DNA of 64,000 nt from Candidatus Krumholzibacteriia bacterium (lineage in GTDB: Bacteria > Krumholzibacteriota > Krumholzibacteriia > LZORAL124-64-63). A model generated the notes under the pieces. The model was not told the DNA's origin and made no database searches. It worked only from the letters and a program-made list of their open reading frames with translations. The DNA is taken from NCBI GenBank assembly GCA_035447065.1, contig DAOTGJ010000006.1:5668-69667 (forward strand). Direction: 5' to 3'. The number at the start of each line of letters is the position of its first letter. The stretch's first letter is position 1. The translations under genes were made by a program, and so were the position numbers. Below are positions 3,771-56,801 of this stretch, one piece after another.

Positions 3771-5423
3771 ATGCGGATTCTCGCGCCATCGGACCAACGG
3801 AAACGGGAGCTCATGGACGATTTTCTGGACGACGAGCAGCAGGGCGGATCTCCGTTCAATCCCATGGACATCCTGCGCCTCTTCCTGCGGCGCAAGTGGC
3901 TCTTCGTGGTGCCCTTCGTGCTCTGCCTGGGCATGGCGTACGTGGCCATCCGCACCATGCAGCCCATCTACCAGTCCAGCGGCGAGATCCGGGTGGTGCG
4001 CAACGAATCCGCCTCGCGCACCATCCAGGAGGGCGTGCCCCGCTACACCCGCTCGCGCTACGCGGAGCGGGAGACCGAGACGCTGATCCGCACCACCATC
4101 GTCAGTCCCAAGTTCCTGCAGGGCGTGGTGCGGGACCTGGACCTGCACCACCATCCGTCGCTCATGACGGAGGGGGCCGTGCCGGCGGTGCTGTCGCCGG
4201 ACAAGGAGAAGGCCCACGTGGCCGCCACGGCGCGCCAGATCGAGAAGATGATCCACGTGCGCTCGGTGGACGCCTTCATCTACCGCGTGAGCGTGCGCCA
4301 CACGGATCCGGAGCTGGTCTACACCCTGGTGGACGAGGTGGTGCACCGCTTCCTGGCGGAGGAGCAGGCCTCGCGGCTGGAGCAGGGGGAGTCGGAGCGC
4401 GACTTCCTCTCGGACCAGCGCGAGATCTACGAGCAGAACCTGCGCGAGGCCCAGAACCGGCTGTCCGAGTTCCAGCGGACCATGGTCAACTCGTCCCTGG
4501 GCGGCAATCCGGTGAACGAGGCCAACCTGGCCCGCGCGGCGGACGTGCTGACGCGGCTGCGCACCCAGATCCAGTCCGACCGCCAGAACAAGATGGGCCC
4601 CCAGCGCACCGAGGCCGTGGCCGTGCTGCCCACGGTGGACCGCTTCCTGGTGGACCTCAAGGGCGAGCCCAGCGTGAGCGACCTGATGGACGAGCTCACG
4701 GAGATGGAGACCGACTTCGCGGTGGCGCAGTTCACGGACAGCGGCCGCGGCCGCGACCAGACCCTGCTGGGCACCTCGCGCGTGGCGCTGGACGATCTCA
4801 TCGGCCGCCGTACGGAGGAGGAGTACGGGCAGATGAGCATCATGTCCCGTACCGCCGTGTCGCGCTACCTGTACGACGCCCTCTACCTGGACATCCTGCA
4901 GGGCGTGGTCCAGTCCCTGGACGACAACATCGCCGCCTACCGCCGCTTCATGACGCGGCAGCCGGAGCAGTCGGCCACCCTGAGCCGCCTGCTGCGCGAG
5001 GTGCAGAGCGCCCAGGACATGCTGGGCACGCTGGACTCGGACATCCGGCGGCAGAACCTGAGCCTGGCGGCCAACATGTCCGCCATCGGCTACCAGATGG
5101 AGATCTACGACGAGCCGCGTCCGCCGCTGTATCCGGTGGAGCCCGACAAGAAGAAGCTGGGCGTCATGGGCGGCGCGCTGGCCCTGGCCATCGGCGTGGG
5201 CCTGGTGCTGCTGGCGGAGATGCTGGACCGCTCCTTCAAGTCCGTGCGACAGATCGAGAAGACCCTGGGCGTGACCGTGATCGGCACGCTGCCCCAGATC
5301 AAGGACGGCCCCTTCGAGGCCTACCGGCGCCGGCGCATCCTGCGCTGGGTGCTGATGATCGTGGCGGTGCTGGTGCTGGCGGCCGTGGGCTTCCTGTGGC
5401 TCTACCCCAAGCTGACGGCCTGA
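3771..5423 (+). CDS. polysaccharide chain-length determinant (Wzz/GumC/PCP family) membrane protein
   Basis: The product has two TM helices flanking a long coiled-coil periplasmic domain and is followed immediately by a BY-kinase ATPase gene. Alternative start at ATG 3813 with a GGGAG RBS. Confidence 0.8.
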   Translation: MRILAPSDQRKRELMDDFLDDEQQGGSPFNPMDILRLFLRRKWLFVVPFVLCLGMAYVAIRTMQPIYQSSGEIRVVRNESASRTIQEGVPRYTRSRYAERETETLIRTTIVSPKFLQGVVRDLDLHHHPSLMTEGAVPAVLSPDKEKAHVAATARQIEKMIHVRSVDAFIYRVSVRHTDPELVYTLVDEVVHRFLAEEQASRLEQGESERDFLSDQREIYEQNLREAQNRLSEFQRTMVNSSLGGNPVNEANLARAADVLTRLRTQIQSDRQNKMGPQRTEAVAVLPTVDRFLVDLKGEPSVSDLMDELTEMETDFAVAQFTDSGRGRDQTLLGTSRVALDDLIGRRTEEEYGQMSIMSRTAVSRYLYDALYLDILQGVVQSLDDNIAAYRRFMTRQPEQSATLSRLLREVQSAQDMLGTLDSDIRRQNLSLAANMSAIGYQMEIYDEPRPPLYPVEPDKKKLGVMGGALALAIGVGLVLLAEMLDRSFKSVRQIEKTLGVTVIGTLPQIKDGPFEAYRRRRILRWVLMIVAVLVLAAVGFLWLYPKLTA

Positions 5424-5436
5424 CCGGGAGGACCGC

Positions 5437-6144
5437 GTGGCAGCTGCCAAGAAGAAGGAACGTCCGGCGTTCGACATCGAATCGCCCATGGCCATCGAGC
5501 TGCGGCGGATCATGATCCGCCTCAACCGCACGCTGGACCTGGACCGCAAGCGCATGATCATGGTGACCAGCAGCGAGCGGGGGGAGGGCAAGAGCCTCTT
5601 CTCCCTGCATTTCTCGCAGGTGCTGGCCAATCACCTGCGCAAGAAGGTGCTGCTGGTGGACGGCGACATGCGCCGGCCGGTGCAGCACACGGTCTTCAAC
5701 GTCCACAAGTCGCCCGGCCTGGCCGAGCTGCTGGCCGGAGCCAAGGAGCCCGTCTACCCCCGCGCCACGCACCTGGACAACCTCTGGTTCCTGCCCGCCG
5801 GCACCCCCGGCGACGAGCCCAGCGTGCTGCTGGAGGAGGGCCGCATCCGCCAGGTGATGCTGCGCCTGAAGTCCGAGTACGACATCGTGCTGCTGGACTG
5901 CCCGCCCGTGGTGCCGGTGAGCGATCCGGTGCAGTTCGTGGAGGAGGCCGACGGCGTGCTCTACCTGGTCATGGCCGGCCAGACGCCGCGCGAGCTCGCC
6001 GAACGCGGCATCGGCATCCTCAAGGGCGTGGGCGCCAACATCGTGGGCGTGGTGGCCAACAACCTGGGCGAGGTGCTGCCCTACTACCACGACCACAAGT
6101 ACTACGGCTACGGCTCCAACGACCGGCGCGAGGCCGAGCGCTAG
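5437..6144 (+). CDS. capsular/exopolysaccharide tyrosine-protein kinase (BY-kinase ATPase subunit, CpsD/Wzc C-terminal-like)
   Basis: It has a Walker A 'SSERGEGKS', the motifs 'LLVDGDMRRP' and 'IVLLDCPPV', and a C-terminal Tyr cluster 'YYHDHKYYGYG'. Confidence 0.85.
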   Translation: MAAAKKKERPAFDIESPMAIELRRIMIRLNRTLDLDRKRMIMVTSSERGEGKSLFSLHFSQVLANHLRKKVLLVDGDMRRPVQHTVFNVHKSPGLAELLAGAKEPVYPRATHLDNLWFLPAGTPGDEPSVLLEEGRIRQVMLRLKSEYDIVLLDCPPVVPVSDPVQFVEEADGVLYLVMAGQTPRELAERGIGILKGVGANIVGVVANNLGEVLPYYHDHKYYGYGSNDRREAER

Positions 6145-13050: not shown

Positions 13051-13085
13051 TTGACAGGTTTCGAATGTATGTTAGCTTTGGCCCT
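13051..13085 (+). promoter_or_regulatory. promoter candidate upstream of nuo operon (perfect -35 TTGACA, ambiguous -10 TATGTT/TAGCTT)
   Basis: This locally AT-rich island lies about 90-120 nt upstream of nuoA. Confidence 0.25.
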
Positions 13086-27063: not shown

Positions 27064-28314
27064 TTAGCGGTAGGCGGGGATGCCGGTGAGATCGGCGCCC
27101 AGGATCAGCGTGTGGATGTCGTGGGTCCCCTCGTAGGTGTAGACCGACTCCAGGTTGGCCATGTGGCGGCCCACCGGATGCTCGTCGGTGATGCCGGCGG
27201 CTCCCAGCAGCGTGCGGGCCGTACGGGCCACATCCAGGGCCATGGCCACGTTGTTGCGCTTGGCCAGGGAGGTCAGCGGCACCTCGTCCACGCCCTGGTC
27301 CTTGAGGCGGCCCAGGCGGTGGACCAGGAGCTGGGCCTTGAGGATCTCCGTGTGCATGGCCACCAGCTTCTCCTGCACCAGCTGGAAGCCGGCCAGGGGG
27401 CGGTCGAACTGCTCGCGGCCCTGCACGTAGGCCAGGGCGCAGTCGAAGCAGTCCTGGGCCGCGCCCACGGCGCCCCAGGCGATGCCGTAGCGGGCCTGGT
27501 TGAGGCAGGAGAGGGGCGCCACCAGGCCCTGGGCGTGGGGCAGGCGCGCGGCATCGGGCAGGCGCACGCCGTCCAGGACCAGCTCGCCGGTGTCGCTGGC
27601 GCGCAGGCTCCACTTGCCGCGGATGGACTGGGCCGAGAAGCCCGGCGTGCCCTTCTCCACCAGGAAGCCCAGCACGCGCTCGGGGCCGCGGGCCCAGACC
27701 ACGGCAACGTCGGCCTGGGTGGCGTTGGTGATCCACATCTTGTTGCCCTGGAGGATCCAGCCCTCGCCGTCGCGCACGGCGGTGGTCTCCATGCCGCCGG
27801 GGTCGCTGCCGTGGGCGGGCTCGGTCAGGCCGAAGCAGCCGATGGCGCGGCCCGCCGCCAGCTCCGGCAGCCAGCGCCGCTTCTGCTCCTCGCTGCCGTA
27901 GGTGGCGATGGGCCACATGACCAGGCTGCCCTGCACCGAGGCGAAGCTGCGCAGGCCGCTGTCGCCCCGTTCCAGCTCCTGGCAGATCAGACCGTAGACG
28001 GTGGGCGAGAGGCCGGCGCAGCCCGGGCCCTTGACCGAGGGGCCCAGCAGCCCCAGGGAGCCCATCTCCAGGCCCAGCTCGCGGGGCAGCACTCCGTCGC
28101 GCACGTAGTCGCGGATGTTGGGCAGGAAGGCGCGGTCCACGAAGGTCCGCACGGAATCGCGGACGGCGCGCTCCTCGTCGCTGAGGGTGGCGTCCAGGCG
28201 GTAGTAGTCGTCGGGCCGAGAGACGGGCACGGCGTCCTCCAGGGGTGATGACAGGGGGGGCGTTCCTTGACCGGTATCCGCGCCCATGATTATCATGACG
28301 CCCTCGAGCGTCAA
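27064..28314 (-). CDS. gcdH: glutaryl-CoA dehydrogenase
   Basis: It has 'GCFGLTEPAHGSDPGGMETTA', 'KMWITNATQADVAVVWAR', 'RLKDQ', 'LAKRNN' and 'YEGTHDIHTLILG', which closely match the GCDH family. The start is ambiguous among several N-terminal Met codons. Confidence 0.9.
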   Translation of the reverse strand: MTLEGVMIIMGADTGQGTPPLSSPLEDAVPVSRPDDYYRLDATLSDEERAVRDSVRTFVDRAFLPNIRDYVRDGVLPRELGLEMGSLGLLGPSVKGPGCAGLSPTVYGLICQELERGDSGLRSFASVQGSLVMWPIATYGSEEQKRRWLPELAAGRAIGCFGLTEPAHGSDPGGMETTAVRDGEGWILQGNKMWITNATQADVAVVWARGPERVLGFLVEKGTPGFSAQSIRGKWSLRASDTGELVLDGVRLPDAARLPHAQGLVAPLSCLNQARYGIAWGAVGAAQDCFDCALAYVQGREQFDRPLAGFQLVQEKLVAMHTEILKAQLLVHRLGRLKDQGVDEVPLTSLAKRNNVAMALDVARTARTLLGAAGITDEHPVGRHMANLESVYTYEGTHDIHTLILGADLTGIPAYR

Positions 28315-30558: not shown

Positions 30559-30719
30559 GCAACCTCTCGCGGGTTCGCGGGCCTGGATCGATGTTCTCCG
30601 GTCACTCTAACCCAACCTCCGGCGGTGTCAACCAGCCCGTGGTTGTCGGGCGCGCCCGCAGCTCCTATGATGCGCGGCAGCCGTGCCGAGTCCCCGCCGC
30701 CGCGAGTCCGAGGAGCGCC

Positions 30720-42746: not shown

Positions 42747-44023
42747 GGACCAGGCTGGCATGGCTGCTGGCGGCGTCGGCGGTGCTCGGAAGCCTGGTCG
42801 CTGGCTTCGTGGACCATCGTCCCCGTGCGCTGGTGGATTGGCGGAGCCTGCGTGCGGTGGCGCTGGAGAGCGATGACTGGGGCCTGCCGGGCTACGTGCC
42901 CGATGCCCACGCCTTGGACGGCGTGGACCGGGCCGCCCTGGGCGGGACCCACTTCCCGGACGTGTACTGGAACTCCACCCTCGAATCCGCGGCCGATCTG
43001 GATGCCATGGTGGCGCTCATGCGCCGTCATCATGCCCGCGACGGCCTGCCGGCCGTGTTCCAGCCCAACATGATCCTGAAGCCGCAACTCCCTGGCCTGG
43101 ACTCACCTTACCATAGGCCGGGGCTCGCGGAGGCCGAGCGCCGGGCCGTGGCTTCCGGCACCTGGCAGCCGGAGATCCACGGGGCCGATCACATCGATCC
43201 GGCGCGGCGGGACGAGGCCCTGACGGATCCTGATCCGGTTCTGGCCCAGGCGGCCTCCCGCGGCGTCCTGGTGTTCCCGCGCAGCCACACGGCCTTCGAG
43301 CTGGGCCCCCAGCGGCCCCTGGCCGACGTCCGCCGCAGCTGGGAACCCCTGCCGCGCCGTTTCGAGGATCGTTTCGGCCAGCCGGCCACGGCGGTCATCG
43401 CGCCGGACTACGTCTGGGACGGCCGCCACGAGGGGCTCTTCCGGGATCTGGGCCTGCGCATCGTCCAGGCCAAGGACCACCAGCGCCAGCTGGGCCTGGT
43501 CGGGCCGCAGCACTGGCGGGACGTGCGGCGGCTCGCCCTGCGCCTCTGGGACCGCTGGCGGGTGCGGGATCTGGTCTACCTGGATCGGAACGCCTTCTTC
43601 GAGACCGCCCACGCGGAAGACCCGCGGGCCCTGGTGCGCTCCTGCGCGGATCAGGTGCGAGGGGCCTGGCGGCGCGGGGAGCCGGCCATCGTGGAGACCC
43701 ATCGCGTGGGTTTCGTGCAGGTGGAGCCCGGCGCGGGGGCGGAGGGGCGCGCCCTGCTGGACAGCCTGCTGACGGATCTGGACGCCTCCGCGCCCCTGTA
43801 CGTGTCGGACGCCGAGCTGGCCGGTCTGGCGCGGCGCGGGATCTCCGCGGTGCGGCGGGGCCCCGTCTGGGTCCTCCGCAACCCGGGCCCGGCCCATCGC
43901 CTGGCCATTCTGCCGACGGATGGGCCTCGGGCCTCGCCGGCCCGGATCGGCGTGCCCGCCCGCACCACCCTGGTCCTGGATCGGACCTCGCTGGCCGTAC
44001 TGCAGCGGCTGCCCCTCCGTTGA
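42743..44023 (+). CDS. hypothetical membrane-anchored protein (polysaccharide-locus associated)
   Basis: It starts at GTG overlapping the upstream stop and has an N-terminal TM anchor 'LAWLLAASAVLGSLVAGF'. The 426-aa product has no recognised motif. Confidence 0.5.
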   Translation: MRTRLAWLLAASAVLGSLVAGFVDHRPRALVDWRSLRAVALESDDWGLPGYVPDAHALDGVDRAALGGTHFPDVYWNSTLESAADLDAMVALMRRHHARDGLPAVFQPNMILKPQLPGLDSPYHRPGLAEAERRAVASGTWQPEIHGADHIDPARRDEALTDPDPVLAQAASRGVLVFPRSHTAFELGPQRPLADVRRSWEPLPRRFEDRFGQPATAVIAPDYVWDGRHEGLFRDLGLRIVQAKDHQRQLGLVGPQHWRDVRRLALRLWDRWRVRDLVYLDRNAFFETAHAEDPRALVRSCADQVRGAWRRGEPAIVETHRVGFVQVEPGAGAEGRALLDSLLTDLDASAPLYVSDAELAGLARRGISAVRRGPVWVLRNPGPAHRLAILPTDGPRASPARIGVPARTTLVLDRTSLAVLQRLPLR

Positions 44024-44048
44024 CACTCTCCTCTGATTTGTAGTACCA
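44019..44048 (+). promoter_or_regulatory. sigma70-like promoter candidate TTGACA-N18-TACCAT for peptidase gene 1
   Basis: A perfect -35 overlaps the upstream stop codon. The leader downstream is homologous to that of peptidase gene 2. Confidence 0.35.
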
Positions 44049-44191
44049 TCATATGCGTTGAGGATAAGGGGGAGGACTCCCGCCTCACGCACTCAATCTG
44101 CGCGCACCTCGTGGTGACCTCGCCACCGGCCTCGGCCGGACACCTCAGAACGCAGAGGATTTCATTGCAGCGCACCGTCTCGCCCCGGTCC

Positions 44192-49271: not shown

Positions 49272-52200
49272 ATGGTCCGCGATCGTCTCCGTTCGAAGCC
49301 TCGGGCGCGGCTGGCCGCGCTCGCCTGCATTGCGATCACCCTCCTCCTCGCCGCCGGCGTCGCCGCCGCGGCCGAGCGCGTCCTGCACCACGGCGTACTG
49401 GACGCCGACAAGCTCGTCTGGGAGTCCACCGCGGCCGGCAGCGTGCCGCGCTTCGGCGATGCTCCCATCTACCTGCAGGACGGGGTGCCCCAGGTGCCCA
49501 GCCTGTCGGTGACCGTGCTTGTGCCCGCCGACGCCGCCCTGGGCGACGTGACGGTGGTGCCCCTGCGCACCCGCCTCGTGGACGCGCCGTCGGCCCTGGC
49601 CTACGGCCGGCCGCTGATCAGCAGCGAGGGGGTGGCCGCCACCCAGGATCTCGTGTCCGCGTCCCGCGACCGCTTCCCCGACGCCTGGGGCCTGGACGGC
49701 GGCGATTCCTACCGCCGCGGCTACCGCCTCCAGAGCGTCACCGTGTTCCCCGTGCGCGCCGTCCGCGGCGCCGACGGGGTCTGGTCCGGCGTCGAGGTGC
49801 TGGAGGAGTTCGAGATCCGCACCGCCGGCACCGAGCCCGCGCCGCGGCCGGAGGACCGGGCGGTGCGCCGCCTGCTGGTGCCCGGCGAGCGCGAGCGCCT
49901 GGAGAGGGAGCTGGCGTCCGCGGTAGTCAACCCCGGCGCCCTCGGCGGCTACGCCCGCGAGGACGGCGTCCCCGCCGCGGATCTGCCCGGCGACAAGACC
50001 ATGAACCTGGGCGATTCCCCCTACGCCTACCTGATCATCACCTCCGAGGCCCTGGCGCCGGCGTTCGAGCCCCTGGCCGCGCACCGCACCGCCGGCGGCC
50101 TGCGCGCCACCGTCAAGACGCTGGAGTGGATCGAGGCCAACTACCGCCACGGCGCGGATCTCCAGGAGACCGTCCGCGGCTTCATCCGCGAGGCCTACGA
50201 GCGCTGGGGCGTGGAGTACGTGCTGCTGGGCGGCGACACCGACGTCATCCCGGCCCGCTACGCCCTGAGCAACTTCTACCCGCCCACGCAGACCACGGAC
50301 ATCCCCGCGGACATCTACTACGCGTGCCTGGACGGCAACTGGAACGCGGACGGCGACCCGTACTTCGGCGAGGCCGGCAGCTCCACGATCCCCGCCGACG
50401 ACGCCGACATGGCCGCGGAGGTCTTCCTGGGCCGCGCGCCGGTCAGCACGCCGGCGGAGGCCCAGAACTTCGTGACCAAGGTGGTGGACTACGAGCTCGG
50501 CACGGGCGGCGTCCACTACCCCAACAAGCTGCTGCTCGCCGCGGAGGTGCTCTTCCGCTCCGAGGCCGGCGACATCACGCTGGACGGGGCGTCCTTCGCC
50601 GAGGAGATCTACCTGGAGCTCGTGCAGCCCAACACCACCATGGACGTGGTGCGCATGTACGAGTCGTACAACGAGACCGACGAGTTCGGCGCGCCCCTGT
50701 ACCCCGGCTCCGTGCGCGAGACGCGGGCCGCGGTCATCGACACGCTGGACACCGGCACCTTCGGGATCTTCGTGCAGATCGGCCACGGCTTCTTCTTCAA
50801 CATGTCCATGGCCGATGCCGACATGACCGTGGGCGACGCCGACGGCCTGGTCAACGCGGACCGTCCGTTCCTGCTCTACGGGCTGAACTGCGCCAGCTGC
50901 GCCTTCGACTACAGCTGCCTCATGGAGCGGTTCGTGCAGAACCCCACCGGCGGCGCCATCGCGTCCATCGGCGCCTCCCGCGCGGCGTTCCCGTACACGT
51001 CCAACGACTTCCAGTACGAGTTCTTCCGCCTCTACTACGAGGAGGACGTGACGCGCCTGGGCGATCTCATCGACCGCAGCAAGCTGCCCTGGCTGTCGCT
51101 GGCGTACTCCAACAGCTTCACGCGCTGGACCTTCCTCAACTACACCCTGCTGGGCGACCCCGGCATGGCCCTGTGGCGCAACCGGCCCGCGGCCGTGACC
51201 CTGGGCACCCCGGGCAGCGTGGGCGGCGGCGACCAGACCGTGAACGTGACCGTCAGCAGCGCCGGCTCGCCGGTGCAGGACGCCATCGTGACCGTGCAGG
51301 GCGGGGGCACCTACGCCACCGCGGCCACCAACGCCTCCGGCCTCGCGGCCGTGCCGGTCACCGTGAACGCCGCGGGCCCGCTGAGCGTGGACGTGCACGG
51401 GCAGGACCTGGTCTGGACCAGCCGCGACGTTCCGGTGGTCTTCGGCGGCGCCTTCGTGGGGCTCGAGGACATGACGGTGCTGGACGACGGCACCCTGGGC
51501 ACCGTCGGCAACGGCAACGGCCGCGCCGAGGCGGGGGAGACCGTGGGCTTCTGGCCCACCTTCGCCGGCGTGGGCAGCAGCGGCAGCGGCGCCGCCACCG
51601 CCACGCTCGTCACCGCCGAGACCGGCGTGACCGTGGTGGACGGCAGCGTGGGCGTGCCGGCCCTGGCCGTGGGCGCCCAGGCCCAGAGCGACGCGCCCTT
51701 CCTGGTGGCCCTGGCCGCCGACGTGGCCGACGGCCGCCGCCTGGACTTCGACCTGGCGGTGAACGACGGCGCCAAGGCCCTCTACGCCAACGCCTGGTCC
51801 ACGCTGGCCACGGCGCCCGAGGTCGAGGCCGTGGCCCTGGACTGGTACGACACCTTCTTCGGCGACGGCGACGGCGTCGTGGACGACGGCGAGCGCATCT
51901 CCGTGCGCATGACCCTGAAGAACTACGGCGGCGGCGCGGCCGACGTGGTCACGGGACGCCTGCGCACCAACTCGGCCAACGTGAACGTCATCGACTCGGT
52001 GGCCACCTACGGCCCCCTGGACCTGCTGGACTCCTCGCAGGGGAGCGGCCTGTTCAGCTTCTCGCTGACCAGCGCCGTGGCGGCCTACGACGTGCGCGTG
52101 GAGTTCACCGACAACCGCGGCCGCACGTTCAGCCATCCGTTCGCCCTGAGCGATCCCACCACCCCCCTCAACCTGGTGGCCACCGGCTCGCTGGGCCCGG

Positions 52201-54113
52201 ACATCATCGGCCTCTCCTGGACGCCGGTGACGGATCCCAAGCTGCGCGGCTACCACGTCTACCGCAGCCAGAACGAGGGCGGTCCCTTCACGCGGGTCTC
52301 CGACGACCTGATCGAGGACATCTCGTACTTCCGCGACAAGGGCCTGGGCCTCCTCACGCGCTACTACTACCAGGTGTCCAGCGTGGACTCCAACCTGGTG
52401 GAGAGCCCCGTGTCGGCGGCCATCGCCCAGAGCACGGCGCCGCCGGAGATCACCAACTTCCCGCTGCCGTTCAACGGCGAGTCCAGCGGCCACTTCGCCG
52501 TGGGCGACGTGACCGGCGACGGTCATCTGGACATCGTCTTCGGCGCCAGCGAGATCTACGTCTGGCAGCGCGACGGCTCCGAGCTCTTCGACGGCGACGG
52601 GGACTCCCAGACCCTGGGCCCCATCACCGACGTGGACGGCACCTTCGGCCCCATGGGCATCGCCCTGGCGGAGCTCAACGGCCTGCCGGGCCTGGAGATC
52701 ATCTGCCAGGACCGCGACGCCAGGCTCCTGCACGTCTACGACGCCAAGACGGGTCAGGACCTTCCCGGCTGGCCTCAGCCCACGGGCCTGAACTGGGCCT
52801 GGGCCACGCCCGCCGTGGGGGATCTGGACAACGACGGCGATCTCGAGATCGTCATGAACAACCAGGCCGGCCAGACGCTGGTCTGGCACCACGACGGCAC
52901 GGAGCTGCTCGACGGCGACGCCAACCCCGCCACCAACGGCGTGTTCTTCGTCCGGCCCGAGGGCCGCTGGGCCTACGACCTGAGCTCGCCGGCCCTGTTC
53001 GACCTGGACGGCGACGGCAACCTGGAGATCATCTTCGGCACCAAGTACGCCTGGAACGCCGAGAACAAGCTCCACGCCCTGCGCATCGACGGCACCGAGG
53101 CCGCCGGCTTCCCCTACGTGACCGGCCTGGGCGCCAGCATCACCAGCAGCCCCACCATCGCGGACCTGAACGGCGACGGCGTGTGGGAGATCATCTTCCT
53201 GCACGAGCTGGAGAAGCTGCTGGTCGTGGAGCAGGACGGGACGGACTACCCCGGCTTCCCGATGACGCTGACGTCGAACAACGGCAACACGGCCTGCCCG
53301 AGCCCCGCCGTGGGCGACTTCGACGGCGACGGCCAGCTGGAGATCGCCTGCATCTCCACCGTGAGCGTGGTCAGCGCCTTCGTCACGGTGGTGGACACGG
53401 ATCCGGCCGGCGGCAGCGGCACCGTGCTGCCCGGCTGGCCCCAGGAGATCCCCGGCAACTCCGAGTCCAGCCCCGTGGTGGGCGACATCAACGGCGACGG
53501 GTTCCCCGACATCGTCCACGGCATCGGCGGCGGGGACGAGGAGACCCTCAACGAGATCTTCGCCTTCGACCATCAGGGCAACCCGGTGGAAGGCTTCCCC
53601 ATCACCCTGGGCGGTCCCATCCGCCCGGCGCTGGTCATCACGGACCTGGACGACGACCACGACGTGGACATCGTCTACGGCGGCTGGGACGGCGCCATGC
53701 ACGTGTGGGACATGCCCTTCCCGGCGGACGGCACCCAGATCCCCTGGGGCACCTTCCGCGGCCATTACCACCGCGACGGCGTGTACCGCAACTACAGCCC
53801 CACGGGCGTGGAGGAGGCCCCGGCCCCGGTGGACCTGACCCTGGGTTCCATCCGGCCCAACCCCTTCAACCCGAGCACCACGGTGCGCCTCTACGTGCCC
53901 GCCATGGGCCGCGAGGGGCTGGAGGTGGACGTCTTCGACGTGCAGGGCCGCCGCGTGCGCCGCCTGCACGAGGGCGCCCTGGAGGCGGGCTGGCACGACT
54001 TCGTCTGGAACGGCCGCGACGACGCCGGCAAGGCCCAGGCCAGCGGCCTGTACCTGCTGCGCGCCAAGGGCGGCGACACCTCGGTCAGCGCCAAGATGGC
54101 CCTGATCCGTTGA
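49272..54113 (+). CDS. secreted multidomain C25 (gingipain-like) cysteine peptidase with FN3/Ig domains, FG-GAP repeats and T9SS-type C-terminal sorting domain (paralog 2)
   Basis: The signal peptide is 'MVRDRLRSKPRARLAALACIAITLLLAAGVAAAA'. It has 'YAYLIITSEALAPAFEPLAAHR', 'QIGHGFFFNM' plus 'YGLNCASCAFD', 'GDVTGDGHLDIVFG' and 'DLNGDGVWEIIF', and a C-terminus 'NPFNPSTTVRLYVP...SGLYLLRAKGG...KMALIR'. Confidence 0.85.
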   Translation: MVRDRLRSKPRARLAALACIAITLLLAAGVAAAAERVLHHGVLDADKLVWESTAAGSVPRFGDAPIYLQDGVPQVPSLSVTVLVPADAALGDVTVVPLRTRLVDAPSALAYGRPLISSEGVAATQDLVSASRDRFPDAWGLDGGDSYRRGYRLQSVTVFPVRAVRGADGVWSGVEVLEEFEIRTAGTEPAPRPEDRAVRRLLVPGERERLERELASAVVNPGALGGYAREDGVPAADLPGDKTMNLGDSPYAYLIITSEALAPAFEPLAAHRTAGGLRATVKTLEWIEANYRHGADLQETVRGFIREAYERWGVEYVLLGGDTDVIPARYALSNFYPPTQTTDIPADIYYACLDGNWNADGDPYFGEAGSSTIPADDADMAAEVFLGRAPVSTPAEAQNFVTKVVDYELGTGGVHYPNKLLLAAEVLFRSEAGDITLDGASFAEEIYLELVQPNTTMDVVRMYESYNETDEFGAPLYPGSVRETRAAVIDTLDTGTFGIFVQIGHGFFFNMSMADADMTVGDADGLVNADRPFLLYGLNCASCAFDYSCLMERFVQNPTGGAIASIGASRAAFPYTSNDFQYEFFRLYYEEDVTRLGDLIDRSKLPWLSLAYSNSFTRWTFLNYTLLGDPGMALWRNRPAAVTLGTPGSVGGGDQTVNVTVSSAGSPVQDAIVTVQGGGTYATAATNASGLAAVPVTVNAAGPLSVDVHGQDLVWTSRDVPVVFGGAFVGLEDMTVLDDGTLGTVGNGNGRAEAGETVGFWPTFAGVGSSGSGAATATLVTAETGVTVVDGSVGVPALAVGAQAQSDAPFLVALAADVADGRRLDFDLAVNDGAKALYANAWSTLATAPEVEAVALDWYDTFFGDGDGVVDDGERISVRMTLKNYGGGAADVVTGRLRTNSANVNVIDSVATYGPLDLLDSSQGSGLFSFSLTSAVAAYDVRVEFTDNRGRTFSHPFALSDPTTPLNLVATGSLGPDIIGLSWTPVTDPKLRGYHVYRSQNEGGPFTRVSDDLIEDISYFRDKGLGLLTRYYYQVSSVDSNLVESPVSAAIAQSTAPPEITNFPLPFNGESSGHFAVGDVTGDGHLDIVFGASEIYVWQRDGSELFDGDGDSQTLGPITDVDGTFGPMGIALAELNGLPGLEIICQDRDARLLHVYDAKTGQDLPGWPQPTGLNWAWATPAVGDLDNDGDLEIVMNNQAGQTLVWHHDGTELLDGDANPATNGVFFVRPEGRWAYDLSSPALFDLDGDGNLEIIFGTKYAWNAENKLHALRIDGTEAAGFPYVTGLGASITSSPTIADLNGDGVWEIIFLHELEKLLVVEQDGTDYPGFPMTLTSNNGNTACPSPAVGDFDGDGQLEIACISTVSVVSAFVTVVDTDPAGGSGTVLPGWPQEIPGNSESSPVVGDINGDGFPDIVHGIGGGDEETLNEIFAFDHQGNPVEGFPITLGGPIRPALVITDLDDDHDVDIVYGGWDGAMHVWDMPFPADGTQIPWGTFRGHYHRDGVYRNYSPTGVEEAPAPVDLTLGSIRPNPFNPSTTVRLYVPAMGREGLEVDVFDVQGRRVRRLHEGALEAGWHDFVWNGRDDAGKAQASGLYLLRAKGGDTSVSAKMALIR

Positions 54114-54117
54114 CGTG

Positions 54118-54147
54118 AGGCCGGCCGACGGTTGACCCGCGGCCGGC
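54118..54147 (+). terminator. GC hairpin after peptidase gene 2 (plus second hairpin 54172-54206)
   Basis: The first hairpin is a 9-bp stem ggccggccg/cggccggcc with a 12-nt loop. The second is a 10-bp stem gggcgcggcc/ggccgcgccc. Confidence 0.35.
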
Positions 54148-54230
54148 CCACGCGCTACGTTGGATGTCGGTCGGGCGCGGCCCCTCCACCCGGAGGCGGC
54201 CGCGCCCTGCGTCTCGGAAGGACTCGCTGG

Positions 54231-55871
54231 GTGAAGATCGTCCGCCATCCGCCCTGGCCGCTGCTGCTCGCCTGCCTCCTGCTCATGGGGTGCGGGGGCG
54301 GCGACGCGCCCGACGGCGGCGGCCCCTCGGCTCCGGCCGACGCCCCCTCCCGCGGCGGCACCGCCGTGATCGCCTTCCCGGCCGAGCCCGACGTCCTCAA
54401 CCCCCTGCTCTACGCCTCGGCCTACAGCGGCATGGTCATGGTGCTGCTGAACGACTCGCTGGTGGAGATGGGGGAGGACTTCCTCTACGCGCCGCAGATC
54501 GCAGCCTCGGTCACACGGGATCCCGACGGCCTGGGCCTCACGGCGGCCCTCCGCCCCTGGCGCTGGAGCGACGGCTCGCCCCTGACGGCCGCCGACGTGG
54601 CGGCGTCCTTCCAGCTCATCCGCGATCCGGCCGTGGCCTCGCCGCGCTACGGCGCCGTGGCGCGTACGATCGTCTCGGTGACGGCGGTGGCCCCGGACAC
54701 GGTGCGCTACCGGTTCGCGGAGGCCCGCGCCGACCAGGACGCGGCCCTGGGCCACGTGCTCCTGCCCGCGCGCCTGACCGCGGATCTGGATCCGGCCGCG
54801 GTGCGCTCCTGGCCCCTCAACGAGTCGCCGCCCAGCTGCGGCATGTTCCGCCTGGAGCGCTGGGAGCACGACCGCAACCTCATCCTGGCTCGCAACGAGC
54901 AGTACGCCGGACAGGCGCCCCTTCTGGACCGCCTCCTGCTGCGCATCATCCCCGACGAGACCGCGCGCTTCCTGGAGCTGGAAACCGGCGGCGTGGACAT
55001 GATGACCGACATCCCGCCCCACCTTGCCAAGCGCCTGGAGGGCGACCCGCGCTTCGCGGTGGCGCGCACGCGCGGCCGTCTCATCGGCATGGTCTACTGG
55101 AACCATGAGGATCCGCTGTTCCAGGACGTCCGCGTGCGCAAGGCCCTCTCGCTGGCCATGGACCGCCAGGCCATCGTGGACGGGCTGCTCGGGGGCTACG
55201 GCCAGGCGGCGGCGGGGCCCATCCCGCCGGTTGTGTGGGCCCATGATCCGGCCGTCGCGCCGGATCCCCTGGATCCCGAGCGCGCGCGCGCCCTGCTGGA
55301 CGCCGCGGGCTGGCGCGACCGCGACGGCGACGGGGTGCGCGAACGCGGCGGCCGCCCCCTGCGCTTCGAGATCATCACGCGCAAGGGCGACCCCGTGCGC
55401 GAGAACGCCGTGGTGCAGCTCCGCGAGAACCTGGCGGCGGTGGGGGTGGACGCGCGGCCGCTGGTGCTGGAGTTCGCCACCGCCATCGACCGCGTGCAGG
55501 CCGGCGACTTCGCCGCCTACCTGGGGGTGTTCTCGGCCCGCCTGTCCGTGGATCCCTCCGGCCTGCTGGGCAGCGACGGCTTCGACCGCTGGAACTACGG
55601 CCGCTACGGCGACGCGCGCGCCGACAGCCTCATGCGCCTGGGCGTGGCGCTGGAGGACCGCGAGGCCGCTCGGCCGGTCTGGTCCGCCTTCCAGCAGCTC
55701 ATGGCCGAGGAGCAGCCCATGGCCTTCCTCTACCATCCCGACATGCTCGTGGCCTACGACCGTCGTCTGCGCGACGTGCGCCCGCACGTGCTCTCGCCGT
55801 TCAACAACGTGCGCGAATGGTGGATCGCGCCGGCGGACCGCCGCTATCCCGCCGCCGAAACTTCCCGGTAA
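54231..55871 (+). CDS. ABC transporter substrate-binding lipoprotein, family 5 (peptide/nickel, OppA/DppA-like)
   Basis: It starts at GTG. The lipoprotein signal is 'WPLLLACLLLMGCGGG', and the family-5 SBP architecture includes 'LVEMGEDFLYAPQIA' and 'RKGDPVRENAVVQL'. I found no permease or ATPase genes adjacent. Confidence 0.8.
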   Translation: MKIVRHPPWPLLLACLLLMGCGGGDAPDGGGPSAPADAPSRGGTAVIAFPAEPDVLNPLLYASAYSGMVMVLLNDSLVEMGEDFLYAPQIAASVTRDPDGLGLTAALRPWRWSDGSPLTAADVAASFQLIRDPAVASPRYGAVARTIVSVTAVAPDTVRYRFAEARADQDAALGHVLLPARLTADLDPAAVRSWPLNESPPSCGMFRLERWEHDRNLILARNEQYAGQAPLLDRLLLRIIPDETARFLELETGGVDMMTDIPPHLAKRLEGDPRFAVARTRGRLIGMVYWNHEDPLFQDVRVRKALSLAMDRQAIVDGLLGGYGQAAAGPIPPVVWAHDPAVAPDPLDPERARALLDAAGWRDRDGDGVRERGGRPLRFEIITRKGDPVRENAVVQLRENLAAVGVDARPLVLEFATAIDRVQAGDFAAYLGVFSARLSVDPSGLLGSDGFDRWNYGRYGDARADSLMRLGVALEDREAARPVWSAFQQLMAEEQPMAFLYHPDMLVAYDRRLRDVRPHVLSPFNNVREWWIAPADRRYPAAETSR

Positions 55872-55906
55872 TATTGTTGACACCTCCCCGGGGCCGGTGC
55901 TTTCCT

Positions 55907-55924
55907 GGCGGTAATATTACCGCC
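55907..55924. promoter_or_regulatory. 18-bp perfect AT-cored palindrome GGCGGTAATATTACCGCC (operator candidate) with upstream half-site CGGTAATATT and TTGACA
   Basis: The palindrome lies 29 nt upstream of the ATG of the HARE-HTH/H1-like gene. A partial copy at 55866-55875 is followed by TTGACA at 55877-55882. Confidence 0.35.
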
Positions 55925-55952
55925 CGCCCTCGTGTCCTCAGGAGGATTCTCC

Positions 55953-56801
55953 ATGGCATCCCGACTGACCCGACTGGCCGATGAACTCTCGCTGGACGAC
56001 CTCAAGCGCCTGCTGCAGGTGAAGGAGAAGATGACCGTGCTGGAGGCGCGGCGCGCCAAGCTGGCCTCCGAGCTCCAGGACGTCGACTCCGAGCTGGCCC
56101 AGCTCCGCCAGGGCATGACGGGCGGGCGCGGTCGTCCCGCCAAGACCAGGACGCGCGTGAAGACGGCCCGCGCCCCGCGCGCCCGCAAGGGCGACACGGT
56201 GGCCGGCGTGGTGGAGGAGCTCATCCGCGCCACCGGCCGGGCCATGACCTTCAAGGAGATCCACGACGCCGTGACGGAGGGCAAGCTCGTCACCACGCGC
56301 TCCAAGGATTTCGCCAACGTGCTGCGGCGCACCCTGTCCACCAGCGACGCCTTCGTGCGCGTGGGCCGCGGCGTGTACGGCGTATCCGGCGTGACCAAGG
56401 CGCCGGCCGCGGCGCCGGCCGCCAAGGCGACCGCCGGGAAGAAGACGGCGAAGAAGGCGGCCAAGAAGAAGACCGCGAAGAAGAAGGCCGCCGGCAAGAA
56501 GGTCGCCAAGAAGGCCGTCGCCAAGAAGGCGGGGCGGAAGGCCGCGGCGAAGAAGGTCGTCAAGAAGACCGCCGCCAAGCGCGGCGGTCGCCGGGCCGCG
56601 GGCGGCACCCTGGAGGACGTGGTGGTCGCGCTGCTGCGCAAGGCAGGCAAGCCGCTGGGCTTCCAGGACCTGCTGAAGACCATCGTGGACGGCAAGCTGT
56701 TCAAGAGCAAGGCCAAGGACTTCAGCAACGTGCTGCGCCGCACGCTGTCCACGAGCAAGAAGGTCCAGCGGCAGGGCCGCGGCGTCTACGGGCTGGCCTA
56801 G
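55953..56801 (+). CDS. DNA-binding protein with two HARE-HTH-like winged-helix domains separated by a histone H1-like Lys/Ala-rich linker
   Basis: An AGGAGG RBS precedes the start. An N-terminal coiled coil is followed by two repeats 'F(K/Q)(E/D)I...GKL...SKDF(A/S)NVLRRTLSTS...V.R.GRGVYG(V/L)' flanking 'AKKAAKKKTAKKKAAGKKVAKKAVAKKAGRKAAAKKVVKK'. Confidence 0.6.
   Translation: MASRLTRLADELSLDDLKRLLQVKEKMTVLEARRAKLASELQDVDSELAQLRQGMTGGRGRPAKTRTRVKTARAPRARKGDTVAGVVEELIRATGRAMTFKEIHDAVTEGKLVTTRSKDFANVLRRTLSTSDAFVRVGRGVYGVSGVTKAPAAAPAAKATAGKKTAKKAAKKKTAKKKAAGKKVAKKAVAKKAGRKAAAKKVVKKTAAKRGGRRAAGGTLEDVVVALLRKAGKPLGFQDLLKTIVDGKLFKSKAKDFSNVLRRTLSTSKKVQRQGRGVYGLA
56400..56598 (+). repeat. low-complexity Lys/Ala codon repeat (AAGAAGGCC-type) encoding the H1-like linker
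   Basis: I observed a run of GCC/AAG/AAGAAG repeats in the sequence. It is a protein-level KA repeat. Confidence 0.5.

What the first reader, a model, noticed from the sequence alone, without database searches (positions are those of the whole stretch)
55864..55924. AT-cored 18-bp perfect palindrome and repeated CGGTAATATT half-sites upstream of the HARE-HTH/H1-like gene
GGCGGTAATATTACCGCC (55907-55924) is a perfect 18-bp inverted repeat with an AT core in a ~70% GC genome. A second CGGTAATATT copy sits 43 bp upstream, abutting a perfect TTGACA, with no good -10 at 17 bp. This geometry fits a dimeric repressor or activator operator over the promoter of the downstream DNA-binding protein gene and may reflect autoregulation. 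The hairpin could alternatively terminate the upstream SBP gene.
Basis: seen in the sequence. Interest (0 to 1): 0.5.

Follow-up and report, generated by a model that had tools for sequence, protein, structure and literature searches.

The report
Conserved promoter box of histone-like gene
The AT-rich palindrome is real and is the most conserved non-coding sequence at this locus across an uncultured bacterial phylum: it sits on the predicted transcription start of a histone-H1-like DNA-binding protein gene and most likely acts as a protein-binding control site, a familiar kind of element whose binding protein is still unknown.

Summary
GGCGGTAATATTACCGCC (55907-55924) is a perfect palindrome, a second CGGTAATATT lies 43 bp upstream, and TTGACA follows it. 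GGTAATATT occurs nowhere else in the 64-kb window.

The organism is a Candidatus Krumholzibacteria bacterium. Across roughly 30 orthologous loci, with protein identity down to about 40%, the intergenic sequence has diverged. Three things stay fixed:
- a -35 TTGAC(A/G/T);
- a TAnnnT -10 hexamer 17-18 nt later (TGcTTTCCT in the window);
- GTAATATT exactly 4 nt after that hexamer, on the predicted start site.

Of 52 GTAATATT occurrences in 291 kb, 48 lie within 150 nt upstream of this gene.

The conserved unit is an oriented 8-mer. The 10-bp palindrome is kept in all two-domain orthologues. The outer GGCG/CCGC arms are neither conserved nor statistically unusual.

No terminator, Rfam family or conserved RNA fold fits.

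My best reading (about 0.5) is an operator pair bracketing a sigma-70-type promoter, possibly bound by the gene's own winged-helix product as autorepression. The main rival (about 0.27) is an element read by RNA polymerase itself: a second -10, a sigma-dependent pause site, or an UP element.

This is a new member of a known kind, of moderate interest.

The parts
54132..55871 (+). Upstream gene: family-5 extracellular solute-binding protein (SBP_bac_5). Its TAA stop codon (55869-55871) lies inside the upstream box. The start codon is uncertain.
   Evidence: ORF list; Pfam PF00496, E=1.3e-76; syntenic in orthologous loci.
55866..55875 (+). Upstream box CGGTAATATT (core GTAATATT, 55868-55875), at about -45..-38 relative to the predicted start. 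Candidate auxiliary operator, or a proximal UP-like element.
   Evidence: Sequence. GTAATATTG directly before TTGACA is conserved in window, L001, L003 and L005 while the flanks diverge. Degenerate TAATAY boxes occupy the same place in other lineages. L020 has a full second copy, CGGTAATATTACTG, 8 nt before its -35.
55877..55882 (+). -35 hexamer TTGACA.
   Evidence: Invariant TTGAC in all orthologous promoters. TTGACA-N16-19-TANNNT occurs 3 times elsewhere in the window against 0.04 expected.
55898..55906 (+). TGcTTTCCT: the -10-position hexamer TTTCCT (55901-55906), 18 nt after the -35, with a TG extended-10-like dinucleotide. It is weak because it lacks the A at -11.
   Evidence: Aligns with TAGGTT, TAGGGT, TACGGT, TACCGT and TATGGT in orthologues. 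The T corresponding to 55906 is kept in every class-I promoter except L017, whose whole upstream part is offset by one base in that gap-free display.
55907..55924 (.). 18-bp perfect palindrome GGCGGTAATATTACCGCC. The conserved core GTAATATTAC is 55911-55920, starting 4 nt after the -10 hexamer. The predicted transcription start is the A at about 55913, so the palindrome spans about -6..+12.
   Evidence: GTAATATT is invariant in 18 of 19 distinct class-I promoters; L017 has GTAACATT. Symmetry holds out to positions +/-7 only. The start site is inferred from the -10 position and has not been mapped.
55931..55932 (+). Conserved CG in the 5' leader (part of a CCCG(A) motif in most orthologues). 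Function unknown.
   Evidence: Invariant columns C99 and G100 of alignment A1.
55940..55945 (+). Shine-Dalgarno sequence AGGAGG.
   Evidence: Sequence; GGAG conserved in orthologues.
55953..56801 (+). Regulated gene, 282 aa. Order of parts: N-terminal long helix, RGRP basic linker, winged-helix (HARE-HTH) domain 1, Lys/Ala-rich linker, winged-helix domain 2.
   Evidence: Pfam PF05066, E=1e-11, two stretches. 100% identical to a Candidatus Krumholzibacteria protein. AlphaFold2 model domain layout. Both predicted recognition helices carry NVLRRTLSTS.

Best explanation
The palindrome is the downstream member of a pair of GTAATATT boxes. The pair brackets a sigma-70-type promoter (TTGACA, 18 nt, TGcTTTCCT) that drives the HARE-HTH/H1-like nucleoid protein gene.

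The downstream box covers the predicted transcription start, at about -2..+8 for the core and -6..+12 for the 18-bp palindrome. The upstream box touches the -35, at about -45..-38.

The most likely mechanism is a protein operator. A sequence-specific DNA-binding protein occupies the start-site box, with the upstream box as an auxiliary site. Binding blocks RNA polymerase or open-complex formation and so sets the level of this presumably abundant chromatin protein.

The most economical candidate for the binder is the gene's own product, giving negative autoregulation. It has a probable N-terminal coiled coil and two winged-helix domains with identical recognition helices. That would supply two equivalent reading heads for the two GTAAT half-sites.

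Shown:
- the sequence and its uniqueness in the window;
- the promoter architecture;
- extreme and gene-specific conservation;
- fixed register with the -10.

Inferred:
- the start site;
- that a protein other than RNA polymerase reads the boxes;
- its identity;
- the sign of regulation.

Sub-probabilities: conserved cis-regulatory DNA element at the promoter, about 0.9; transcription-factor operator, about 0.5; binder is the gene's own product, about 0.3.
For: 1. Conservation. In 8 two-domain orthologous loci (53-89% protein identity, 62-74% G+C), only TTGACA, the T..T of the -10, GTAATATTAC, a CG in the leader, part of the SD and the ATG are invariant. In 19 distinct promoters with the same architecture, GTAATATT is invariant in 18 and always starts 4 nt after the -10 hexamer, while the 17-18-nt spacer is unconserved.

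2. Specificity. Of 52 GTAATATT occurrences (both strands) in 291.5 kb of window plus loci, 48 lie within 150 nt upstream of this gene. The window has no other copy.

3. Separate from the -10. In L020 and L032 the box sits 10 and 12 nt after a good TAnnnT at the proper 17-nt spacing.

4. Two-site architecture. The window has two identical 10-mers 43 bp apart. L020 has two identical 14-mers, CGGTAATATTACTG, flanking its promoter 57 bp apart.

5. Partial dyad symmetry beyond the core. Positions +/-6 pair in 15 of 18 sequences and +/-7 in 13 of 18, using several pair types.

6. Non-syntenic paralogues L014 and L015 also carry GTAATATT in their 5' regions.

7. The product has two winged-helix domains with the same NVLRRTLSTS helix, a long N-terminal helix and an RGRP motif. 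Its weak structural neighbours are forkhead domains, which read oriented AT-rich sites such as GTAAACA and can pair on palindromes (best E 0.02, so this shows fold class only).

8. All 8 two-domain lineages keep the perfect 10-bp palindrome, against 3 of 15 single-domain lineages that have the box.

9. No transcription-factor gene lies in the conserved neighbourhood: C25 peptidase, SBP, this gene, HIT, PfkB, Hsp20, Lon.
Against: - No binding data and no mapped start site exist.
- The strictly conserved unit is an oriented 8-mer. The right-hand 'AC' is lost in many lineages, which fits a dimeric palindromic operator less well than a monomeric or polymerase-read site.
- TAATAT and AATATT are good -10-like hexamers. 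In L014, L015 and L024 a box-like GATATTAC sits at the real -10 position, 17 nt after TTGACG.
- The spacing between the two boxes varies (42-43 bp against 57 bp) and is not always a whole number of helical turns.
- More distant family members from lower-GC organisms lack the box. The motif therefore tracks a clade and locus rather than the whole protein family.
- The link between two-domain proteins and full palindromes may reflect a single evolutionary event.
- HARE-HTH domains have not been shown to be sequence-specific.
Confidence: 0.5

Rival explanations
1. The boxes are read by RNA polymerase itself, not by a regulator. The downstream GTAATATT would be one of three things: a second, -35-independent -10 element (tandem promoter P2, starting about 55924-55926); a -10-like element in the initially transcribed region that causes sigma-70-dependent promoter-proximal pausing, as at lambda PR' (from my own knowledge); or simply an easily melted start region. 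The upstream AT-rich box, at -45..-38, would be a proximal UP element contacted by the alpha C-terminal domain.
For: - TAATAT and AATATT fit TAnnnT-type -10 hexamers.
- The box keeps one orientation and a fixed 4-nt register with the promoter -10. That places a -10-like hexamer at about -1..+6.
- In L014, L015 and L024 a related GATATTAC is the -10 at the correct spacing from TTGACG.
- The window clade's own -10 (TTTCCT) is weak, so another element may be needed.
- Degenerate TAATAY boxes lie just upstream of the -35 in many lineages, where UP elements sit.
- The right half of the palindrome is dispensable in many lineages.
Against: - Invariance covers 8-10 bases, including the G before and the T(AC) after the hexamer. 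Orthologous -10 hexamers at the same promoters conserve only T, A and the last T.
- The identical 14-mers on both sides of the L020 promoter and the identical 10-mers in the window are not expected for an UP element plus a -10.
- Symmetry extends to +/-7.
- Related variants such as GGTAATAAACC and GGTAATAACC (L022, L025) lose the critical last T of a -10.
- The motif is absent from the other promoter-like sites in the window.
Confidence: 0.27
2. The boxes are operators for a different transcription factor encoded elsewhere in the genome, for example a growth-phase or stress regulator. The HARE-HTH gene would then be one, possibly the main, member of that factor's regulon.
For: The conservation, specificity and geometry are the same as for the best explanation. 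GT...AC dyads with AT-rich centres are typical of several bacterial repressor families, such as GntR-type operators (from my own knowledge, not tested). Distant family members lack the box, so the box is not an obligatory partner of the protein family.
Against: No regulator gene is linked to the locus in any of roughly 40 genomes. No second target was seen in 291 kb, although that sample is mostly the same locus from different genomes. Paralogues in other genomic contexts (L014, L015) also carry the box.
Confidence: 0.18
3. The palindrome acts as an RNA or DNA hairpin: an intrinsic terminator or 3' stabiliser for the SBP mRNA, or a structured element in the 5' leader.
For: The 18-bp palindrome can fold as a 7-bp stem with a 4-nt loop in RNA, and it lies 36 nt after the SBP stop codon.
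Against: - There is no U-tract, and the terminator scan does not flag it.
- The region's folding z-score is -0.9.
- There is no Rfam match.
- The leader alignment gives no consensus structure, 0 predicted pairs.
- The sequence is invariant while the outer arms are not maintained: 68% of cells paired against 64.5% in shuffles.
- The -10 hexamer ends 4 nt before the core, so transcripts from this promoter cannot contain the whole hairpin.
- The right arm is lost in many lineages.
Confidence: 0.03
4. A chance palindrome with no function.
For: Perfect 18-bp palindromes occur at about the chance rate in this GC-rich window: 2 seen, 0.83 expected.
Against: The AT core is unique in the window. It is invariant across roughly 30 lineages whose surrounding intergenic DNA has diverged completely.
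Confidence: 0.01

Closest known systems
Autoregulatory sites at promoters of nucleoid-associated protein genes, such as fis, hns and lsr2-type AT-rich high-affinity sites (from my own knowledge)
   Same: A DNA-structuring protein gene has a strong promoter carrying unusually AT-rich, conserved sites that overlap the core promoter and start site. There are two sites flanking the promoter. The expected logic is homeostatic repression.
   Different: The protein here is a HARE-HTH winged helix with a Lys-rich, H1-like linker, unrelated to Fis, H-NS or Lsr2. The site is a sharply defined 8-10-mer rather than a loose AT-rich tract. Binding has not been tested.
Classical palindromic operators overlapping the transcription start, such as lacO1, tetO and LexA boxes (from my own knowledge)
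   Same: Dyad symmetry of 10-14 bp, a position from about -6 to +12, an auxiliary second site upstream, and invariance among orthologues.
   Different: Only the left 8 bases are universally conserved. No cognate repressor gene is linked apart from the regulated gene itself. The motif GTAATATTAC was not found as an operator in the searchable literature.
Sigma-70-dependent promoter-proximal pause elements and tandem -10 elements, as at lambda PR' (from my own knowledge)
   Same: A near-consensus -10-like hexamer (TAATAT or AATATT) on the non-template strand, placed 11-12 nt downstream of the promoter -10 in a fixed register and orientation.
   Different: Conservation extends beyond the hexamer. 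A second identical copy lies upstream of the -35. Part of the element is palindromic. No pause has been demonstrated.
Forkhead and linker-histone winged-helix DNA recognition (FOXO1 on palindromic DNA, PDB 6lbi; HNF-3/histone H5, PDB 1vtn)
   Same: The predicted domains are winged helices whose nearest solved neighbours are forkhead domains. Forkhead sites are oriented AT-rich 7-8-mers beginning GTAA. A winged-helix domain plus a Lys-rich tail is the linker-histone plan.
   Different: The structural matches are weak (best E 0.02, none at or below 0.001). Pfam Forkhead scores below its threshold (18.8 against 27 bits). There is no evidence of common descent or of the same base contacts.
Fur-type boxes, GATAATGATAATCATTATC (from my own knowledge)
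   Same: An AT-rich inverted repeat containing TAAT/ATTA, overlapping a promoter in a GC-rich genome.
   Different: The half-site is GGTAAT, not GATAAT. There is no central spacer base (6-0-6 rather than 7-1-7). The regulated gene is unrelated to metal homeostasis. It does not fit the consensus.

Membership tests
Sigma-70-type promoter | -35 hexamer close to TTGACA | tested here: met
   Perfect TTGACA at 55877-55882. TTGAC is invariant in orthologues.
Sigma-70-type promoter | -10 hexamer TAnnnT, 16-18 nt downstream of the -35 | tested here: inconclusive
   The window has TTTCCT at 18 nt, preceded by TG but lacking the A at -11. Orthologues have TAGGTT, TAGGGT, TACGGT or TATGGT at the same position. 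The consensus scanner finds no promoter in the window region.
Sigma-70-type promoter | Experimentally mapped transcription start | not testable with these tools
   No transcript data are available. A start at about 55913 is inferred from the -10 position.
Palindromic transcription-factor operator | Dyad-symmetric sequence | tested here: met
   Perfect 18-bp dyad in the window. A 10-bp dyad is present in 11 lineages. Across lineages symmetry is supported out to +/-7 only, and it is lost on the right side in about 12 single-domain lineages.
Palindromic transcription-factor operator | Conserved among orthologous promoters and positioned to interfere with RNA polymerase | tested here: met
   GTAATATT is invariant in 18 of 19 distinct class-I promoters, 4 nt after the -10. 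48 of 52 occurrences lie upstream of this gene.
Palindromic transcription-factor operator | Bound by a specific regulator | not testable with these tools
   Requires EMSA, footprinting or DAP-seq.
Intrinsic (Rho-independent) terminator | GC-rich stem-loop | tested here: met
   A 7-bp stem with a 4-nt loop is predicted.
Intrinsic (Rho-independent) terminator | U-rich tract immediately after the stem | tested here: not met
   The stem is followed by CGCCCTCGTG. The terminator scan does not report it.
Known structured RNA family (Rfam) | Match to a covariance model, or a conserved covarying structure | tested here: not met
   No Rfam hit at E<=1. RNAalifold predicts 0 pairs in 17 leaders.
Fur box | 7-1-7 inverted repeat TGATAAT-N-ATTATCA, or GATAAT hexamer repeats | tested here: not met
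   The sequence is GGTAAT/ATTACC with no central base and G rather than A at hexamer position 2. The consensus is from my own knowledge.
Sigma-54 promoter | TGGCAC-N5-TTGC with conserved GG and GC | tested here: not met
   The window's TGGCGGTAATATTAC has TTAC in place of TTGC, and the TGGC is not conserved in L001, L003 or L008.
UP element (upstream box only) | A/T-rich tract at about -38 to -59 that stimulates transcription through the alpha C-terminal domain | tested here: inconclusive
   The position (-45..-38) and AT-richness fit. The stimulatory function is not testable here. Exact identity with the downstream box argues for a shared reader.

The most novel reading that the evidence does not exclude
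The H1-like HARE-HTH protein of Krumholzibacteria is not a non-specific DNA coater. It is a sequence-reading chromatin protein whose winged-helix heads recognise the oriented box GTAATAT(T). Its two heads, linked by a coiled coil and a Lys-rich linker, clamp the two boxes around its own promoter, giving a defined nucleation and autorepression site. Because HARE-HTH domains have been proposed as readers of modified bases (PMC6591016, PMC11037411), binding to the ApT-rich AATATT core could even depend on methylation.
Probability: 0.25. Interest if true: 0.6.

Novelty: new member of a known kind. Interest (0 to 1): 0.4.

Why it matters
Krumholzibacteriota have no cultured, genetically tractable member, and their abundant HARE-HTH/H1-like proteins are uncharacterised.

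An invariant 8-10-bp box sits on the start site of this gene, conserved across the group. It gives a concrete DNA probe for the first biochemical test of what this protein family binds. It also gives a defined promoter (TTGACA, 17-18 nt, TAnnnT) for expression work in this lineage.

If the protein reads its own box, this would be an example of a linker-histone-like bacterial protein with a specific high-affinity site. If RNA polymerase reads it, this would be a phylum-wide conserved promoter-proximal -10-like element. Either way the element is an ordinary kind of thing, a promoter control site, so the result refines annotation rather than changing concepts.

Tried and rejected
- Intrinsic terminator for the SBP gene: rejected. 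No U-tract, not flagged, and the sequence rather than the pairing is conserved.
- Known RNA family or structured leader: rejected.
- TAATAT as the -10 partner of TTGACA: rejected. The 28-29-nt spacing is too long, a TAnnnT sits at 17-18 nt in orthologues, and the box shifts by 6-8 nt in L020 and L032 while that -10 stays put.
- Sigma-54 promoter, and the Bacteroidetes-type -33/-7 promoter (TTTG / TAnnTTTG): both read against the sequence and rejected. The organism shows TTGACA/TAnnnT promoters.
- Fur box: does not fit.
- General promoter or repeat element (REP or MITE-like): rejected. It is unique in the window and tied to one gene across genomes.
- A linked regulator gene: none found. The extra gene inserted between SBP and this gene in some lineages is a lipoprotein-like ORF.
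- Literature search for GTAATATTAC returned only primers and guide RNAs. 'HARE-HTH' plus 'nucleoid' returned nothing.
- Sequence search of PDB with the family profile found nothing significant. NCBIfam gave only low-complexity or below-threshold hits.
- A collection-wide search for the bare motif was not attempted. The core has fewer than the 14 specified bases required, and a 14-mer would give thousands of chance hits in AT-neutral metagenomes.
Full report
**1. The observation**

Reading 55500-56400 confirms every coordinate.
- GGCGGTAATATTACCGCC occupies 55907-55924 and is a perfect 18-bp inverted repeat.
- CGGTAATATT recurs at 55866-55875, 43 bp upstream.
- After one base comes a perfect TTGACA at 55877-55882.
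- The TAA stop of the upstream solute-binding-protein gene (54132-55871; Pfam SBP_bac_5) lies inside the upstream copy.
- The downstream gene starts at ATG 55953, behind AGGAGG at 55940-55945.

The window is 71.6% G+C.

The 18-mer, allowing 3 mismatches, is unique in the window, against 0.02 expected. GGTAATATT, allowing 1 mismatch, occurs only at these sites, against 0.22 expected. The 12-mer with 3 mismatches finds nothing else outside coding DNA. The two boxes are 2 of only 11 AT-rich islands in 64 kb.

One correction applies to the impression of rarity. Perfect 18-bp palindromes as such are not unusual in DNA this GC-rich: 2 are present and 0.83 are expected. The other, GGCGGATCATGATCCGCC at 5504-5521, lies in a coding region. 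The outer GGCG/CGCC arms therefore carry no weight. The AT core and its duplication do.

**2. The organism and the gene**

The downstream protein is 282 aa and has two HARE-HTH matches (PF05066, E=1e-11). It is 100% identical to a hypothetical protein of a Candidatus Krumholzibacteria MAG.

An AlphaFold2 model (mean pLDDT 70.6) gives this layout:
- a long N-terminal helix (residues 14-56);
- a disordered basic segment containing RGRP (58-78);
- a winged helix (83-144);
- a disordered Lys/Ala-rich linker (152-217);
- a second winged helix (220-281).

Both predicted recognition helices carry NVLRRTLSTS.

Foldseek against the PDB gives only weak matches, best E 0.02 and none at or below 0.001. 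Forkhead DNA-binding domains and the RNA polymerase delta subunit head the list. Profile searches of the PDB and NCBIfam give nothing significant. The protein is an uncharacterised, linker-histone-like DNA-binding protein.

**3. Comparative evidence**

I fetched loci for the closest two-domain orthologues. I then took unbiased, protein-anchored samples from species-representative genomes (34 loci) and from metagenomes (40 loci).

Most loci share the window's neighbourhood: C25 peptidase, SBP, this gene, HIT on the opposite strand, PfkB, Hsp20, Lon.

In the eight two-domain lineages (53-89% protein identity, 62-74% G+C) the SBP-to-gene spacer has diverged almost completely. The invariant columns are TTGACA, two Ts of a hexamer 17-18 nt later, GTAATATTAC, a CG in the leader, part of the Shine-Dalgarno sequence, and the ATG.

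Anchoring 34 promoters on their -35 shows that essentially all family members have TTGAC(A/G/T), then 17-18 nt, then TAnnnT (TAGGTT, TAGGGT, TACGGT, TACCGT or TATGGT). The same pattern occurs three more times in the window, against 0.04 expected. This organism therefore uses sigma-70-type promoters with a TAnnnT -10.

The window's hexamer at that position is TTTCCT (55901-55906). It is preceded by TG but lacks the A at -11, so it is a weak -10. It is shared with L001 and L003.

**4. Position of the box**

In 19 distinct promoters the box begins exactly 4 nt after the -10 hexamer. GTAATATT is invariant in 18 of them; L017 has GTAACATT. With a start 7 nt after the hexamer, +1 is the first A of GTAAT, at about 55913. 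That puts the core at -2..+8 and the 18-bp palindrome at -6..+12.

In L020 and L032 the box lies 10 and 12 nt after a well-placed TAnnnT. In L014 and L015 it lies 27 nt after. The box is therefore a separate element from the -10 that partners TTGACA. This rules out a TTGACA-29 nt-TAATAT promoter.

**5. Specificity**

GTAATATT occurs 52 times, counting both strands, in 291.5 kb of window plus loci. Of these, 48 lie within 150 nt upstream of this gene. The box is not a general promoter feature or a dispersed repeat.

**6. What exactly is conserved**

The universally conserved unit is the oriented 8-mer GTAATATT. The 10-bp dyad GTAATATTAC is kept in all 8 two-domain lineages but in only 3 of 15 single-domain lineages that have the box. 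The others end in AA, AT, CA, CT or CG.

A formal pair count on 18 sites shows:
- position +/-6 pairs in 15 of 18 sequences, using GC, GU, UA and UG;
- position +/-7 pairs in 13 of 18;
- there is little pairing beyond that;
- overall, 68% of cells are paired against 64.5% in shuffles, with modest covariation (9-40 of 500 shuffles reach the observed values).

The functional dyad is thus at most about 14 bp (C-N-GTAATATTAC-N-G). The window's 18 bp is a lineage-specific extension.

**7. The upstream copy**

GTAATATTG abutting TTGACA is conserved in window, L001, L003 and L005 while its flanks diverge.

L020 has two identical 14-mers, CGGTAATATTACTG. One lies 8 nt before its -35 and the other 10 nt after its -10, 57 bp apart.

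Other lineages have related boxes near the -35:
- GGTAATATCC or GGTAATGA, 0-16 nt before the -35;
- degenerate TAATAY boxes, 4-5 nt before it;
- an ATCTTAC(C) motif.

A two-box arrangement around the core promoter is therefore widespread, with variable spacing.

**8. RNA-level explanations fail**

- There is no Rfam hit at E<=1.
- The palindrome is not called as a terminator and has no U-tract.
- The region's folding energy is unremarkable, z = -0.9.
- Seventeen leaders give no consensus structure, 0 predicted pairs.
- Transcripts from the conserved promoter cannot include the left arm.

**9. Mechanism**

The best-supported reading is a protein operator pair bracketing a sigma-70-type promoter. 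The start-site box would be the main site and the upstream box auxiliary.

Four points favour a dedicated DNA-binding protein over RNA polymerase:
- invariance extends over 8-10 bases, beyond what orthologous -10 hexamers show;
- the element is duplicated exactly, as 10-mers in the window and as 14-mers in L020;
- the dyad extends partly beyond the core;
- the box is tied to a single gene.

The gene's own product is the most economical binder. It is the only DNA-binding protein in the conserved neighbourhood. It has two identical reading heads and a probable dimerising helix. Paralogues elsewhere in the genome (L014, L015) carry the box. Full dyads coincide with two-domain proteins.

All of these points are circumstantial. 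I put the probabilities at about 0.9 for a conserved promoter-level cis-element, about 0.5 for an operator, and about 0.3 for autoregulation by the product. Repression is inferred from position only. In the window clade the weak -10, together with a box centred near -41, leaves activation possible.

**10. Main rival**

RNA polymerase itself may read the boxes. TAATAT and AATATT are good -10-like hexamers held in a fixed register and orientation, 11-12 nt downstream of the promoter -10. From my own knowledge, that is the geometry of sigma-70-dependent promoter-proximal pause elements such as lambda PR'.

Three further points support this rival:
- in L014, L015 and L024 a related GATATTAC is the true -10;
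- the right half of the dyad is dispensable in many lineages;
- the upstream box sits where a proximal UP element would.

I give this about 0.27. An unlinked regulator gets about 0.18, which overlaps the operator reading. The hairpin or terminator reading gets about 0.03 and chance about 0.01.

**11. Comparison with what is known**

The element works like start-site operators and like autoregulatory sites of nucleoid-protein genes. It is not a Fur box, a sigma-54 promoter, a terminator or a known RNA family. The motif does not appear as a regulatory site in the searchable literature, and no paper links HARE-HTH to nucleoid proteins. HARE-HTH domains have been proposed as readers of modified DNA (PMC6591016, PMC11037411), which gives the most adventurous reading: methylation-sensitive binding to the ApT-rich core.

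**12. Verdict**

This is a new member of a known kind. Interest is 0.4.

Noticed in passing
window 55953-56801, and loci L001-L063: The downstream protein has a linker-histone-like plan: a long N-terminal helix, an RGRP AT-hook-like motif, then one or two winged-helix HARE-HTH domains with the same NVLRRTLSTS helix, joined by a KKxAKK-rich linker. It sits as an orthologue between the SBP and HIT genes in most Krumholzibacteria-like genomes sampled. It has two domains in one clade and one domain elsewhere.
   Followed up: partly
window 55931-55932; alignment A1 columns for C99 and G100: A CG, part of CCCG(A) in most orthologues, lies about 10 nt downstream of the box in the 5' leader. It is invariant in the eight two-domain orthologues. 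No function has been assigned.
   Followed up: no
L006/L011, L010/L012, L017, L039-L041, 7-20 nt upstream of the -35: A recurrent ATCTTAC(C) motif lies upstream of the -35 in lineages that lack the GTAATATTG upstream box. It resembles the right half of the palindrome (ATATTACC) and may be the equivalent upstream site.
   Followed up: partly
window 5504-5521: A second perfect 18-bp palindrome, GGCGGATCATGATCCGCC, has the same outer arms as the finding but lies inside a coding region (gene 5416-6144, + strand). It is probably chance, and it serves as a control for how common GC-armed palindromes are here.
   Followed up: partly
window 28286-28298: An AT-rich near-palindrome, ATGATTATCATGA (5-1-5), lies about 20 nt after a TTGACC, at the start of the ORF beginning near 28299 on the + strand. 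It contains TGATTATCA, which resembles half of a Fur-type box.
   Followed up: no
window 13051-13078 (+), 30604-30631 (-), 44020-44049 (+): Three further TTGACA-N16-19-TAnnnT promoter-like sites, against 0.04 expected by chance. They suggest a canonical sigma-70-type promoter consensus in this FCB-group lineage.
   Followed up: partly
window 55869-55871; also L001, L003, L005, L032: The TAA stop codon of the SBP gene lies inside the upstream GTAATATT box. The end of one gene and the control region of the next therefore overlap, and the box constrains the choice of stop codon. L006 uses TGA and lacks the box.
   Followed up: partly
L019, L021, L022, L023, L026, L027, L044 (about 650-2470 in each): In several lineages a gene of about 1.7 kb is inserted between the SBP and the HARE-HTH gene. 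It is lipoprotein-like, with only a weak LptM_cons match. These lineages lack the start-site box but often keep a GGTAAT box near the -35.
   Followed up: partly
window 49272-54113: A protein of about 1,613 aa with Peptidase_C25, FG-GAP repeats and a C-terminal FlgD_ig-like domain lies immediately upstream of the SBP gene. Its position is conserved across the orthologous loci.
   Followed up: no
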